Assembly: GCA_964016885.1 (NCBI GenBank)
Contig: OZ024741.1
Coordinates: forward strand, 266,414,001-266,478,000
Reading direction: 5' to 3'
Length of the DNA stretch: 64,000 nucleotides
DNA from: Eledone cirrhosa
Taxonomy: Eukaryota
Below the pieces are notes generated by a model. That model made no database searches. It had not been told where the DNA came from and was given only the letters and a program-made list of their open reading frames with translations. The position numbers were made by a program, and so were the translations under genes. Positions 17,847 through 61,339 of the stretch are shown piece by piece; the first letter of the stretch is position 1, and every line of letters starts with the position of its first letter.

Positions 17847-18584
17847 ACATATATATATATATATATTTTTTTTTTTTTAAAGAGTCGACCCTGGTATTGG
17901 ACTACTACTTTATTTTATCAACCTCAAAAGGATGAGAAGCAAAGTTGACCTTGGTGAAATTTGAACTCAGAGTAAAGAGAGCCAGAATAAATACTGTGAT
18001 CAAAGGGGTATCAACTCTGAATGTCTTATGTATATGTAAGAATACAGTATCCAATGTGTACCCAGTTTAGAATAGGTGCACAGAATCCCTGCATGTTGTA
18101 CAAGGTGACTAAAAAGGGTTGGTGATAGAAAGGGCATCCACCTGTAAAACATTACCTCAAAAGACTCCTTGATGAATACAAACCAGTCATGGAGCGTGCA
18201 AGGCTTGCCTTTGTTTTAGTAGGGGAAATAACCGTAAAACACTTAATAATGAGCAGGATGTAGTTTTGACCTTTAATCGAATTTCAGACCTAATTGAACC
18301 CTCATCAGAAGGCATATGTATATATCATTCAAATAACCACATGGAAACATGTATTTGATGGACTTATATATCCATTCCCCCTTCTTAAGAATGGGTATAT
18401 ACTATATAATAATAATAATCATCGTTTAACGTCCATCTTCCACACCTGCATGTGTTTGGCCGGGAGTTTTCCCACTTGAGGCAAGATTGGTTGTCTTGCT
18501 CGCATATGTAAATAACCCATGGTAGCATGGAAGAATAGATGTATATACTATATATATATATATATGATGATGATATATATGTAT

Positions 18585-29589: not shown

Positions 29590-31050
29590 ATCTAGGGCGG
29601 GTAAAATTCCCGAGATCCATGGACGAGTTCTCTCCAGCGGTCTCTGTCCCTCATTATCGCTGCCATGTCCTGCGTCTCCAACAGATTAGTGTCTGCCCTT
29701 AGGGCATCAACATACGTTAACCTCGGTCTTCCTCTTCCAGTGTGTCCATGTAGGGGCTCCCACAGGAGCACTGAGTGCAATGTCAGCTCTGGATGTCGGT
29801 GAGCATGTCCGGCTACAGTCTCCTCTGAGTCACTTTTGAGCTGACTTTTGGGAGGCTCCCATACAGCTCTGAGTTTTTCATCCTCAGTAAATACTGATTA
29901 ATGTTCAGAGCCATCCTCAGCATTCTCGTGTAACACCCGTCCACCATCTGAGTGCGTTTCTTGGTCAGTGTGCAAGTCTCAGACCTGTACAGCAGCACAG
30001 ACTCCACTACAGCAATGAAGAGGCGGATTTTCAGGTCTTTACGAAGGTCCGACATCCACACCGATCTCAAGCTGTGGCACGCCGCCCAGGCTTTGCTCTT
30101 CCTCTCAACCACATCATCTACCGTATTCCCAATCTTTGCTCCCAAATACAGGAAGTCCTCAACCAATTCTAGCGGCTTCCCGCCTACATTAGTGATCCCT
30201 TTTGGCTTCTCAACATTCTTTACCAGATATTTTGTTTTAGTCCCATTCATTCTCAGCCCCACACTCATCGACACAGTCTCAACCTCCTGCATCAAATCCT
30301 CTGCCTCCTTCACTGTATTTGTCACCAAAACTATGTCGTCGGCAAATTTAGCATCTGATACACACACTTACACCTCTCCAAGACAATGTCACTCACACAC
30401 TTACACCTCTCCAAGACAATGTCACTGGACCGAGACCTTTGGCGGTACTCAGTAACAGAGAAGACCCGCCTTGCCAGTAGGCATCTCTAACAAAATACAC
30501 CCCGTCCCACCACCACCACCCCCACCCCATCCACACCACCCCGTCCTATGTAAAGTTATGTTGGTGCCGCGCCATCCGGGCCGAAACAAATGAGATCGTG
30601 TAGGTGTCACGACAAAAAAACACACAGTCCACGCTGTAATGTGGCCGTGTAGGCAACACGGTAAAAACCTCCCAGACCCACACTGTAAATGTGGTTGGTG
30701 TTAGGAAGGGCATCCAACTGTAGAAAACCTGCCAGACAGTCCTATGCGAACAAGACAATCACTCTTGCCTCAAGTGGGACTACCCCCGTCCAAACCCATG
30801 CAAGCGTGGAACACGGACGTTAAACGTTGATGATGATGATGATGATGATGATATCTTTTTCGCCTTAACTCTCCTGCTCTGAGCCGGTGTTACAGTAAAG
30901 CCAGAGTCCTGGTGTTTCCAGTGCAAGGCGCATACAATAGTCCACTACGATGATAAAAAGGTAGGGAGCCAATGTATCTCCCTGGAGCATTCCAGCCAGT
31001 ATCTCAAAGAACTCTGTCATCCCATCAGGTGTAATGACTCGGGCTTATGT
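29590..31050 (-). mobile_element. Degenerate RTE/RTE-X-like LINE RT-to-3' fragment, split by a later RTE insertion
   Basis: ARVITPDG.TEFFEILAGMLQGDTLAPYLFIIVVDY (about 30950-31045) and SDAKFADDIVL..FLYLG..ESVLLY..DGCYTRMLR..LLWEPLHG..RGRP. Confidence 0.9.
30361..30853 (+). mobile_element. RTE 3'-end fragment inserted in the RTE-X-like copy
   Basis: Matches the ORF end and UTR of the 19605 and 36044 copies; tgata on both flanks; 33-bp duplication at its 5' end. Confidence 0.85.
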
Positions 31051-33823: not shown

Positions 33824-34124
33824 ATCATCATCATCATCATTTCATTTTACGTCCGCTTTTTCCCTGCTGGCAAGGGTGGGACAGGAACTGATTCTGGCTT
33901 GATTTCTACAGCTGGATGCCCTTCCTAACACCAACCTCATTTTACAGTGAGTGCTGGGTGCTTTTTTGGCATGGCACCTCCACGACCACTTTGCAGTGGA
34001 ATGATAGGGACCCCAGCTGAGTAAACTGGAGCAATGTGAAATAAAGTGTCTTGCTCAAGGAAACAACACATCACCCGGTCTGAGAATTGAACTCACAACC
34101 TTTCAATTGCAAGGCTGATGCTCT
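33824..34124 (-). mobile_element. SINE family A, head truncated at the junction with the 557-bp HHR element
   Basis: The sequence breaks at gctctaa, where ccactaagcca is expected. Confidence 0.85.
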
Positions 34125-34917
34125 AAATACGTCCAGGAATCATGGCCGTTGCCAATATAATCTTGTCTTTATTGACTTGTATCGAGACAGACAAATTGTA
34201 TTCACTTTTATTAGTTTATTTCATTCATAGCTAACTTTGTCTGTTGCAATGTAAACACATTTCGTGTTTATCATATACTTTAAATGTATTAACTGCTCGG
34301 AAGAGCCCCTTCCTGGAGCTTAATTATTGTAAACGACTGAGATTTTATTCTCAAAATATAATATAATGTATAGCTCCTTTATTGTAAGAGCTGATCCTTA
34401 ATCCTGCATAAGCGGCTGTTATTTCTAGCACCGTGAATGTGGGATAGCTAGTTTTGGCCTGCCTACCCATGTGTAGTCAGACCTGCAAAATTTTTGATGT
34501 GAGATAGACTAATCTTACTGGATTCCTGTTGATAAGCACAGAAGATTTGGACATTTCACTCTTTTATTTCTATTCCATTTCGATTCTCTTTATTTTTCAA
34601 TTCACATTCCACCGTTGCGAAACTTATTTTGGGTTTCGAGGTTCAAATTCGTCTACAGAACAGGTTTGAATTTTGAAATTTAAATATGTCCAGGAATCAT
34701 GGCCGTTGCCAATATAATCTTGTCTTTATTGACTTGTATCGAGACAGACAAATTGTATTCACTTTTATTAGTTTATTTCATTAATAGCTAACTTTGTCTG
34801 TTGCAATGTAAACACATTTCGTGTTTATCATATACTTTAAATGTATTAACTGCTCGGAAGAGCCCCTTCCTGGAGCTTAATTATTGTAAACGACTGAGAG
34901 TTTATTCTCAAAATATA

Positions 34918-34924
<7 letters not shown>
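34124..34924 (+). mobile_element. Non-coding HHR-bearing element 1 (retrozyme/Penelope-like): 557-bp period with 244-bp terminal direct repeats
   Basis: 34124-34367 is nearly identical to 34681-34924; HHR at 34521-34698; no ORF; 3' end abuts (TA)n. Confidence 0.7.
34521..34698 (+). ncRNA. Type I hammerhead ribozyme, U3-A8 core variant, extended helix III
   Basis: Helix I gattcctg/caggaatc (8 bp); core TTGATAA; helix II gca/tgc; GAAA 34619-34622; helix III 22 contiguous pairs (34628-34649 / 34663-34684, 8 G.U); GTC triplet 34688-34690. Confidence 0.7.
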
Positions 34925-34973
<49 letters not shown>

Positions 34974-34974
<1 letters not shown>

Positions 34975-35685
34975 GTTAATATGTCCAAGGATACTAAGTA
35001 CCCCTAGAAATACATAGGCTGTCTATGATTCAAGGTTGTTCAATGGTATTAATTTGATATACCAGAACTTTAATATTAAGATAAGCAGAACAAGTAAAAT
35101 TCAACCAATTTTTTAAAATAAATAAAAAAATATAATATGAATATTTACCTCTTCTAATGGCCCTTACTGATCAGTTTCGCTTTGTAAAACCCCTGAAAAC
35201 CGTGGATATCTGATGGAAAGCCAAAGCTCATCAGAGAAGCATTTTCCTTTCCTAGGGCTAAAAGACCCAGGAACGATAAAATATATGACCTCCTGCCAGC
35301 TAACACAGGTCTGAAAGGTCGTAAAGTGACCCGTATGTAAACTGGTCCAAAGTAAAAGCGGGAAACCACAGACTTGCTGTTTATAATTACTACTACAAAA
35401 AATAGCAGCTAAATAGAACAACAGATTTGTTCTCTACATAACGGAGAATAATGAATGAAGTTAATATGTCCAAGGATACTAAGTACCCCTAGAAATACAT
35501 AGGTTGTCTATTATTCAAGGTTGTTCAATGGTATTAATTTTATATACCAGAACTTTAATATCAAGATAAGCAGAACAAGTAAAATTCAACTAATTTTTTA
35601 AAATAAATAAAAAAATATAATATAAATATTTACCTCTTCTAATTTATTTTAAAAAATTGTTTGAATTTTACTTGTTCTGCTTAAC

Positions 35686-35690
<5 letters not shown>
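34974..35690 (-). mobile_element. Non-coding HHR-bearing element 2 (retrozyme/Penelope-like): 485-bp period, 185-bp terminal direct repeats, short inverted end
   Basis: 34974-35158 matches 35459-35643; 35642-35690 is an inverted copy of 35558-35608; HHR at 35156-35243. Confidence 0.7.
35156..35243 (-). ncRNA. Type I hammerhead ribozyme with intact core
   Basis: Minus strand reads aatgcttct CTGATGA gctttg...caaagc GAAA CTGATCAG TA agggccatt; helix II 6 bp, palindromic helix III, GUA cleavage triplet, helix I 8 of 9 pairs. Confidence 0.8.
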
Positions 35691-35721
<31 letters not shown>

Positions 35722-35909
35722 ATGAAATACCAATGATCGTTGGCAAATCACTGATGAGGGACTCATTTTATAATATGTAATCCATGTGCAACCATGCAGT
35801 ATTCTTCTCCCCATGTTTTTCATATATATATATATATAACGAAGTGGTAAGGAACCAGGTGGACCATAACGCACCAAAGTACTCAATACTTAGGGTAGTA
35901 GAGTGGGTA

Positions 35910-36028
35910 ATAGGAACGAGTAGGACCCCGACAGCTGAGCTCAAGCCGTTTCGCCGGCTAATTCTGGACTCCAGAATTAGCCGTCGAAACGGCTTGAGCT
36001 CAGCCGTCGGGGTCCTACTCGTTCCTAT
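35910..36028. repeat. GC-rich 119-bp palindrome (58-bp arms, 2 mismatches, 3-nt loop)
   Basis: ataggaacgagtaggaccccgac...gtcggggtcctactcgttcctat. Confidence 0.95.
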
Positions 36029-60172: not shown

Positions 60173-60261
60173 TTAACACATAATAGTGTTCTACCAGTTG
60201 TCATCCACACTGGTACATCCCTTTTTTGAAGACAGGCATTAAGCTGATATGGTTGACCTTG

Positions 60262-61339
60262 CTGATAGCGAGGGGCCTCTGGAATTCGTTATACCTCTCA
60301 ATGATGCGGCGTAGCGTAAAGATCTGCTCTGCACAGGAACGTTTTGGTCGGAACCCTGCCTGTTGTTCTCGCAGTTCCCGGTCTACCATGCCACGCATGC
60401 GGTTCAGGATCACTAGACAATAGACCTTCCCTGGTGTGGAGAGAAGTGTCACTCCCCTCCAGTTGCCACAATCGGCAAGGTTGCCTTTCTTGGGGATACA
60501 GACAACCACTCTGTTTCTCCAGTCTTCTGGGACTTCACCCGTGTTCCACACAAGATTACATAAGTGGCCCATCCACTTGACCATGCTTTTGCCTCCTGAC
60601 TTCAGCATTTCAGCAGAAATGCCATCCATACCTGGTGACTTGTTATTCTTAAGGGCTTGTTATCTGACTTGTTATCTGGGACACACCCACCACCAACCAG
60701 TGTCTTCATTGAACAGGGGAGGTGGAGATAGTGGACAACTTCACCTACCTAGGAAGCTCCATTAACAATGAGTGCACCATAGACAGTGAACTGCAATGTA
60801 GAATGGGAAAGGCTTCAGCAGCATTTAACCAGCTTGACAAGATCTGGAAGAGCAGGAAGTTCACTCTTAAAACAAAGATGAGATTCTACAACAGCAACAT
60901 GCTGTCCACACTCATGTACGGAAGTGAAACATGGCACCTTAAGACCAGCCAAGAGAAGAAGTTGGACGCATTCGATTCCAGATGTCTGCGAAAGATCCTG
61001 GGGATTAAATGGAGTGACCATGTAACAAACCAGGAAGTCAGGAACCGCACCAACCAGCAGCTAGTCTCTTCTACCATCTGCAAGCGACGCCTGGGCTGGT
61101 TTGGACACGCTTTGAGACTTCCCCCGGAGAGACTGGCGAACCAAGTACTTAAATGGAGCCCGCAGGAAAGCAGACGGAGAGGGCGACCCAAAATGAACTG
61201 GCGCCAGGCAGTTGAGAGGGACCTGCGAGCAACAAACAGACAATGGCGGGACGCTGTGCAACTGGCTGCTGAACGAACGCAACGGAACACTATGATTGCC
61301 TCATGCGTCGCAAGACGCGGGAGCTTCTGAGTCTGAGTA
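60262..61339 (+). mobile_element. RTE (BovB-like) LINE with inverted 5' segment
   Basis: 60262-60660 on the minus strand: KSPGMDGISAEMLK..NWRGVTLLS..EQQAGFR. 60661-61330 on the plus strand: FTYLGS..LMYGSETW..RRLGWFGH..RGRP. Tail ctgagtctgagt; gaccttg on both flanks. Confidence 0.9.

What the first reader, a model, noticed from the sequence alone, without database searches (positions are those of the whole stretch)
34974..35690. Second element: intact hammerhead whose cleavage site marks the terminal-repeat boundary
Seen: 185-bp direct repeats with a 485-bp period. The minus-strand HHR has canonical CTGATGA/GAAA, a 6-bp helix II, self-complementary ACTGATCAGT helix III and a GUA triplet. The predicted cut (35165/35164) is 6 nt from the repeat edge (35158), so the element's 5' end (35643) nearly equals a cleaved RNA end. 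It is capped by a 49-bp inverted copy. Known: partial tandems, inverted 5' ends and palindromic-helix-III HHRs typify Penelope-like elements and animal retrozymes. Inference: a cDNA copy of a ribozyme-processed RNA.
Basis: partly seen in the sequence, partly recalled or inferred. Interest (0 to 1): 0.75.

Follow-up and report, generated by a model that had tools for sequence, protein, structure and literature searches.

The report
Hammerhead retrozyme with Penelope two-ended insertions
This is one copy of a non-coding jumping repeat that carries a predicted self-cutting RNA motif and sits in TA microsatellites as two back-to-back arms ending at two fixed sites, likely made by Penelope-type retrotransposon enzymes, but its copies do not begin at the predicted cut, so the near-match seen here is likely chance.

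Summary
The features are real: 185-bp repeats 485 bp apart, a type I hammerhead core with predicted cut at 35165/35164, and a 49-bp inverted cap. The key inference fails. The copy belongs to a family with at least 454 ends in this genome. Among 167 sampled arms, none starts within 3 nt of the cut (3.2 expected), and 162 of 168 passes read through it. The 'terminal repeat' edge is just this copy's 5' truncation point. The fixed points are two 3' ends on (TA)n: E1, 92 nt after the cut, and E2, about 105 nt further. All 45 resolved inverted copies pair E1 with E2, as the window copy does. This is the Penelope one-sided tail footprint, here on an ORF-less retrozyme. A sister family and an ORF-bearing Neptune/Nematis-type element in the genome behave alike, and one insert joins that element's end to this repeat. 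Best reading: a non-LTR retrozyme copied in trans by a Penelope-like RT/endonuclease from both sides of a break, using an uncut or re-ligated RNA. Cleavage, circles and the helper are untested. The scan reported the same footprint earlier on other DNA.

The parts
34923..34957 (.). (TA)n target tract on the E2 side; it abuts the 5'-truncated end of the neighbouring 557-bp tandem element
   Evidence: sequence
34957..34973 (+). A16 run plus G between target and element end; not in the unit; seen in 1 of 74 E2 ends (this copy)
34974..35643 (-). Long arm, 1.38 units of the 485-nt monomer, from 5' truncation point 35643 to fixed 3' end E2 (about 34974)
34974..35072 (-). Tail: segment between the two fixed ends E1 and E2, present on one arm only
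35073..35073 (-). Internal copy of fixed end E1 (also at 35558), 92 nt downstream of the predicted cut
35160..35240 (-). Type I hammerhead: helix I 35240-35235 with 35164-35160, CUGAUGA 35234-35228, helix II 35227-35179 with a damaged distal hairpin, GAAA 35178-35175, palindromic helix III 35175-35166, predicted cut 35165/35164
35159..35643 (-). One full 485-nt non-coding unit; longest ATG frame in the long arm is 25 aa (sense) and 33 aa (antisense)
35642..35644 (.). Head-to-head junction of the two arms with a 2-nt AT microhomology; unit positions 486 and about 36-38
35644..35692 (+). Short inverted arm (the 49-bp cap), ending exactly at fixed end E1
35690..35718 (.). (TA)n target tract on the E1 side
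   Evidence: sequence

Best explanation
This is a copy of a non-coding, 485-nt, hammerhead-bearing repeat family (a non-LTR retrozyme) that was likely inserted into a TA microsatellite by a Penelope-like reverse transcriptase/GIY-YIG endonuclease acting in trans, which is inferred to prime cDNA from both sides of the DNA break at two fixed internal sites of the RNA. Shown: two fixed 3' ends, E1 and E2, about 100-110 nt apart; TA targets; scattered 5' ends; strict E1/E2 pairing in inverted copies; seamless read-through of the cut site; covariation of the ribozyme helices. Inferred: one break end is extended from E2 (the long arm here) and the other from E1 (the 49-bp cap). Both cDNAs stop at variable points and are joined head to head by microhomology. 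The template has no free 5' end at the cut, so it is either an uncut multimer or a cut and re-ligated circle (about even odds). The ribozyme would act mainly as a dimer through the palindromic helix III, in making the RNA rather than in fixing the DNA ends. The 6-nt distance between this copy's 5' end and the cut is likely chance.
For: Family: 271 matches from 39 of 2540 candidates; 454 exact E1+TA ends, 0 for the reversed control; 689 exact matches to the ribozyme's 3' half. Pairing: of 28 distinct E1-anchored inverted copies, 24 have E2 outside, 0 have E1 and 4 are unresolved. Of 22 further E2-anchored ones, 21 have E1, 0 have E2 and 1 is complex. Fisher p=2.6e-13. 5' ends. The cut-spanning segment has unchanged length in 254 of 256 passes, like four control segments. 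The two arms of a copy differ at 150 of 7251 shared positions, against about 624 for median arms of other loci, and share 22 rare variants (39 loci). Sister family (66-69% identical): of 28 loci, 12 are inverted and the short arm ends at one site 86 nt after the cut in all 12. ORF-bearing element with RT, a CX4CX2C linker and GIY-YIG has its own two TA-abutting ends, paired E1/E2 in 16 E1-anchored and 11 E2-anchored copies (three of these assigned by eye), with no same-end pair. L205 joins that element's end head to head with this repeat. PMC11167929 shows a purified Penelope protein nicking and extending both strands and starting at two internal sites that bound the tail, with ribozyme cleavage not needed.
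Against: No ORF-bearing element with a matching terminal repeat was found among 50 GIY-YIG loci of 10,595 candidates. The candidate helper's cut-to-E2 region is no more similar than shuffles (475 of 500 as high). The chimera is a single case and pairs E2 with E2; 60 helper loci held no further chimera. One four-piece copy (L008) has E2 at both ends. In the sister family 2 of 12 short arms start within 3 nt of the cut, and one copy (L359) has a shortened E1-like second end. A mild excess of 5' ends at -15..+25 around the cut (26 against 19.4, p=0.086) is not excluded. Repeating variant patterns in long arrays suggest some growth after insertion. No cleavage or RNA data.
Confidence: 0.82

Rival explanations
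1. One reading: the insert is the cDNA of a ribozyme-cut linear RNA, and the reverse transcriptase ran off the cleaved 5' end, fixing the repeat boundary.
For: The long arm starts 6 nt after the cut. 3 of 167 arms start within 0..+6. 2 of 12 sister-family short arms and 3 of 57 arms of the ORF-bearing family start within 3 nt of their cuts. One unit has a 10-nt deletion starting at the cut.
Against: 0 of 167 arms within 3 nt of the cut; 6 against 5.1 expected in cut..+10; 162 of 168 passes read through. Other stretches, such as unit positions 108-118, attract more ends. Run-off could still explain a small share of copies, including this one.
Confidence: 0.06
2. The copies are truncated terminal repeats (pLTRs) of an ordinary protein-coding Penelope-like element, and the tandems arose afterwards by local duplication.
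For: The footprint is that of coding elements (PMC8557442 passages). Bioinformatic work derives retrozymes from pLTRs (bioRxiv 10.64898/2026.07.22.740005). Periodic variants in arrays L022, L031 and L220 fit block duplication.
Against: Arms that extend beyond one unit continue into the same unit in the 94 E1 and 38 E2 loci mapped. Non-TA 5' flanks share no common body. Dispersed copies of 1-3 units are common, and in L040 both arms carry the same 3 private variants.
Confidence: 0.08
3. The inverted arm comes from fold-back or self-priming of one cDNA (or DNA repair) rather than from a second RNA-primed start.
For: Arms of one copy are nearly identical. Self-priming was proposed for Penelope inverted junctions (PMC3846280 passages).
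Against: Fold-back gives a junction palindrome with both arms starting near one position; here the two 5' ends are mostly far apart. It does not explain why the second arm stops exactly at E1, or why the arm with E2 can be either the long or the short one. The chimera L205 has arms from two different elements.
Confidence: 0.1

Closest known systems
Metazoan non-LTR retrozymes (Cervera & de la Pena 2020, PMC7229834; Li, Clavereau & Pollet 2026, bioRxiv 10.64898/2026.07.22.740005)
   Same: ORF-less, low-GC tandem units, each with a type I hammerhead; monomers to long multimers; co-occurs with Penelope-like elements.
   Different: The unit of 485 nt is above the 170-400 nt of the 2020 paper and within the 51-972 bp of the preprint. 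Helix II is extended and helix III is a 10-nt palindrome. The TA targeting, head-to-head arms and two paired fixed ends are not described in the passages and parts I read. Circular RNA and cleavage are not shown here.
Insertions of endonuclease-bearing Penelope-like elements with inverted pLTR and one-sided tail (PMC8557442, PMC3846280, PMC11167929)
   Same: 5' truncation, partial tandems, inverted 5' copy, tail on one end only, AT-rich or (TA)n targets. The first start lies 92 nt after the hammerhead cut; the Anolis element's figures give 85-92 nt (cut at +26, start at +111-118).
   Different: No ORF. The tail is about 100-110 nt instead of 30-40. The tail is called optional in these papers; here the E1/E2 pairing is strict in 45 of 45 resolved inverted copies.
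Hammerheads of Penelope-like elements (Cervera & de la Pena 2014, PMC4209133)
   Same: Type I fold, long helix II, short helix I, palindromic helix III predicted to need a dimer.
   Different: No unpaired base at the start of helix II in this subfamily; loop II carries a further 10-bp hairpin with compensatory changes.

Membership tests
Non-LTR retrozyme | Tandem units of a few hundred bases, each with a type I hammerhead | tested here: met
   485-nt units with the motif in each; arrays of at least 19 full units
Non-LTR retrozyme | No protein-coding capacity | tested here: met
   longest ATG frame 25 aa sense, 33 aa antisense
Non-LTR retrozyme | Dispersed to many loci | tested here: met
   454 exact E1+TA ends; matches on many contigs
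Non-LTR retrozyme | Expressed as linear and circular RNA | not testable with these tools
   no RNA data were examined
Type I hammerhead ribozyme | Core CUGANGA / GAAA / NUH with three helices | tested here: met
   92.5% of cells paired, 7 pairs with changes on both sides, on 14 related sequences; no Rfam match
Type I hammerhead ribozyme | Self-cleavage at the predicted site | not testable with these tools
   this copy is predicted to misfold more than relatives; 8 of 9 Xenopus retrozymes did not cleave in vitro
Penelope-like element (autonomous) | ORF with RT and GIY-YIG endonuclease | tested here: not met
   no ORF in the unit or joined to the mapped copies
Penelope-type insertion footprint | 5' truncation, partial tandem, inverted 5' copy | tested here: met
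Penelope-type insertion footprint | Tail on one end only | tested here: met
   45 of 45 resolved inverted copies pair E1 with E2; 5 unresolved; tail 100-110 nt
Penelope-type insertion footprint | Terminal sequence shared with an autonomous helper | tested here: inconclusive
   none among 50 GIY-YIG loci; no significant similarity to the candidate; one chimeric insert
   0 of 167 arms within 3 nt of the cut

The most novel reading that the evidence does not exclude
A dimeric Neptune-type RT/endonuclease captures one retrozyme RNA circle and copies it from both sides of a TA break, one subunit always starting at E1 and the other at E2. The Penelope tail is then the obligatory offset between two subunits, and the U3-A8-hammerhead Neptune-type family found here is the helper, caught in one chimeric insert.
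Probability: 0.3. Interest if true: 0.65.

Novelty: new member of a known kind. Interest (0 to 1): 0.4.

Why it matters
How animal retrozymes get into DNA is open. The link to Penelope-like elements has rested on shared ribozymes, co-occurrence and terminal-repeat similarity. Here an ORF-less retrozyme carries the Penelope insertion footprint itself, with two mapped start sites that are strictly paired, and a candidate helper protein exists in the same genome. This gives a concrete substrate, target and prediction for the existing in vitro Penelope assay. The census also shows that ribozyme cleavage does not set the DNA ends, in line with the in vitro result for the Anolis element.

Tried and rejected
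Rfam scans of the window and of 35100-35300 gave no hammerhead match. Search for expression: no RNA holder listed; no reads were laid, so expression and RNA ends remain open. Template jumping between cut ends: no excess of length changes at the cut (2 of 256, like controls). Rolling circle read from array uniformity: not decidable, because units of the youngest subfamily are identical across loci, private variants could come from unsampled source loci, and L031 fits block duplication better than a tetramer circle. Helper by sequence similarity: the sister-family array next to the PLE ORF in L252 is separated from it by a TA tract, so it is a later insert and not a pLTR; the hits in L261 are weak. 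More chimeras: none in 60 helper loci. Window ORFs: RT and zinc-finger fragments, no GIY-YIG (13 ORFs). Target-site duplication cannot be read inside (TA)n. Literature searches for twin priming with Penelope-like, non-LTR retrozyme with microsatellite and inverted, and octopus with Penelope and hammerhead listed nothing that describes the strict pairing; the library lacks most subscription papers. A look-up of earlier findings by sequence found nothing.

Full report
Observation. The described features are in the sequence. The repeats 34974-35158 and 35459-35643 are 185 nt, 485 apart, with 6 mismatches. On the minus strand the hammerhead core starts at 35234, GAAA at 35178, and the GUA ends at 35165, so the predicted cut is 6 nt from 35158. 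The cap 35644-35692 is an inverted copy (47/51). Both flanks are (TA)n. Rfam gives no hammerhead match, but a descriptor scan finds this motif alone in the window.

The ribozyme fold is supported by the family. Helix III is ACTGATCAGT or ACCGATCGGT: among the first 100 of 689 listed matches, 83 have the first form, 17 the second and none is mixed; this is one change on one branch, not 17. On 14 chosen sequences from several subfamilies and the sister family, 92.5% of cells pair and 7 pairs change on both sides (covariation 0.32 against 0.19 shuffled; related sequences inflate this). Loop II holds a further 10-bp hairpin. That hairpin is damaged in the window copy, whose hammerhead-compatible fold is 10.1 kcal/mol above its minimum, against 3.7-7.1 in three relatives. 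Cleavage is untested.

Family. A search of the own genome (3.0 Gb) gave 271 matches from 39 of 2540 candidates, including long tandem arrays; one array has at least 19 full units. The unit is 485 nt and non-coding. Numbering the unit from window 35643, the cut falls after position 479. Copies end at two fixed places that abut (TA)n. E1 is at position 86 (window 35073/35558) and is precise, with 454 exact matches and 0 for the reversed control. E2 is at positions 185-196 and varies by a few bases. The 185-bp 'terminal repeat' is the overlap of a 1.38-unit copy that runs from its truncation point to E2.

I mapped 94 of the first 100 listed E1 loci (of 454) and all 38 distinct E2 loci, then fine-mapped the 5' ends. 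One locus ran off the fetched stretch, one could not be fine-mapped, and 7 duplicate arms were removed by script. I then dropped 9 more rows (5 arms with unassigned ends, 3 duplicates, 1 at an assembly gap) and corrected one mis-mapped arm, leaving 167 arms. Against a constant stopping rate, 0 start within 3 nt of the cut (3.2 expected), 6 in cut..+10 (5.1 expected), and 26 in -15..+25 (19.4 expected, p=0.086). 162 of 168 passes read through the cut. The segment across the cut keeps its length in 254 of 256 passes, like four control segments. As a positive control, the same kind of mapping shows a sharp fixed 5' end in an ORF-bearing family (24 of 57 arms within 14 nt). So cleavage does not set this family's 5' ends. 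Against this: 2 of 12 short arms of the sister family and 3 of 57 arms of the ORF-bearing family start within 3 nt of their cuts, so occasional run-off is possible.

What is fixed instead. Inverted copies pair the two ends. Of 28 distinct E1-anchored inverted copies, 24 have E2 on the other side, none has E1, and 4 are unresolved. Of 22 further E2-anchored copies, 21 have E1, none has E2, and 1 is complex. Independent choice of ends is rejected (p=2.6e-13). The E2 pattern is specific to some subfamilies. The window copy follows the rule: long arm to E2, cap to E1. An exception outside the anchored samples is L008, a four-piece copy with E2 at both ends. The two arms of a copy are much closer to each other than to typical other loci (150 differences in 7251 positions against about 624; 22 shared rare variants; 39 loci). 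This points to one RNA or one source locus, though conversion between arms could add to it. 50 of 78 arms without a detected inversion have (TA)n at their 5' side too. In the sister family, 12 of 28 loci are inverted and all 12 short arms end 86 nt after the cut. Both ends were resolved by motif in 7 of them: 6 pair E1 with E2 and one has a shortened E1-like end.

Helper. The genome holds many GIY-YIG frames (10,595 candidates, 150 scored). Among 50 fetched loci none has a terminal repeat like this unit. One abundant family has RT, a CX4CX2C linker and GIY-YIG; such a linker marks Neptune and Nematis (PMC8557442), and I built no tree. It has a U3-A8 hammerhead variant, a variant described in PMC4209133. 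Its own two TA-abutting ends give 1920 and 4305 exact matches. They pair E1 with E2 in 16 of 30 E1-anchored and 11 of 30 E2-anchored loci (three assigned by eye, some loci in both sets), with no same-end pair; the rest are direct, run off the stretch, or are unresolved. L205 joins about 85 nt of that family's E2 end head to head with an E2 arm of the retrozyme, between TA tracts. This is one case, it breaks the E1/E2 rule, and the two families' end regions are not significantly similar. The helper is a candidate only.

Mechanism. Inferred: a Penelope-like protein nicks (TA)n on both strands, extends one end from E2 and the other from E1, and the two truncated cDNAs are joined by microhomology. 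PMC11167929 shows for the Anolis element cleavage and extension of both strands, two internal starts that bound the tail, a predicted dimer, no need for ribozyme cleavage, and no RNA reads ending at the cut. Read-through of the cut needs an uncut multimer or a re-ligated circle. Array data do not decide this: all units and both arms of L040 share 3 private variants, but L022, L031 and L220 show repeating variant patterns that fit later block duplication.

Comparison and novelty. It meets the sequence-level features of non-LTR retrozymes and has the Penelope footprint without an ORF. The one-sided tail is known as an optional 30-40 bp extension. A 100-110 nt tail with strict pairing on a retrozyme was not found in my searches. 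Earlier unreviewed notes of this scan report the same footprint in this and other genomes; I formed my reading before seeing them, and they are not independent support. Papers seen: bioRxiv 10.64898/2026.07.22.740005 parts 1-3 of 5; PMC11167929 parts 1-3 of 4; PMC4209133 parts 1-2 of 4; passages of PMC8557442, PMC7229834 and PMC3846280. No supplements were read; those of the preprint and of PMC7229834 may list this or related families.

Verdict. This is a new member of a known kind with a testable insertion footprint. Interest 0.4.

Noticed in passing
window 34124-34929 (minus strand): Neighbouring partial tandem with 249-bp repeats and a 557-bp period; 67-72% similar to other TA-inserted copies in the genome. 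No canonical type I hammerhead was detected in it. The studied element sits in the TA tract at its 5' end.
   Followed up: partly
L271-L330; reference L251 minus strand: In the ORF-bearing Neptune/Nematis-type family, 24 of 57 arms start within a 14-nt stretch 61-74 nt upstream of its hammerhead cut. This could be a transcription start or another processing site; unexplained.
   Followed up: partly
L205:300-650 (G000:C4 near 318745500): Chimeric head-to-head insert: about 85 nt of the ORF-bearing family's end joined to a retrozyme arm, with a short microhomology.
   Followed up: partly
L208 (G000:C5 near 61943850): About 20 nt matching the retrozyme's E2 end is joined to unrelated sequence that by eye resembles a Penelope-type RT frame (motif recalled, not tested), with another element's end beyond it.
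   Followed up: no
L252:6500-7410, L331-L360, L003:3005-3411: Sister retrozyme families, 66-69% identical, period about 460-470 nt, with the same hammerhead layout and homologous E1 and E2 sites; 3142 candidates in the genome.
   Followed up: partly
L022, L031, L220: Variants recur with higher-order spacing inside arrays (every 3 units in L022, every 4 in L031, 6 then 4 in L220): block duplication or multimeric templates.
   Followed up: partly
window 18270-18320 (minus strand): A second, apparently decayed hammerhead-like motif (CTGATGA ... GAAA, near-palindromic helix III).
   Followed up: no
window 34957-34972: A16 run at the E2 junction, seen in 1 of 74 E2 ends; could be slippage by the reverse transcriptase at the start or later homopolymer growth.
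   Followed up: partly
L146 and the window copy: Both have the same junction (unit positions 486 and about 36) but with the E1 and E2 roles of the arms swapped; positions 34-37 attract several ends.
   Followed up: no
window 35850-36025: Long near-perfect inverted repeat between TA tracts just right of the element.
   Followed up: no
window 29816-30367, 36565-37608, 40741-41949, 60204-61327: Fragments of other retroelement ORFs (RVT_1, PHD, zf-RVT, DUF6451).
   Followed up: no
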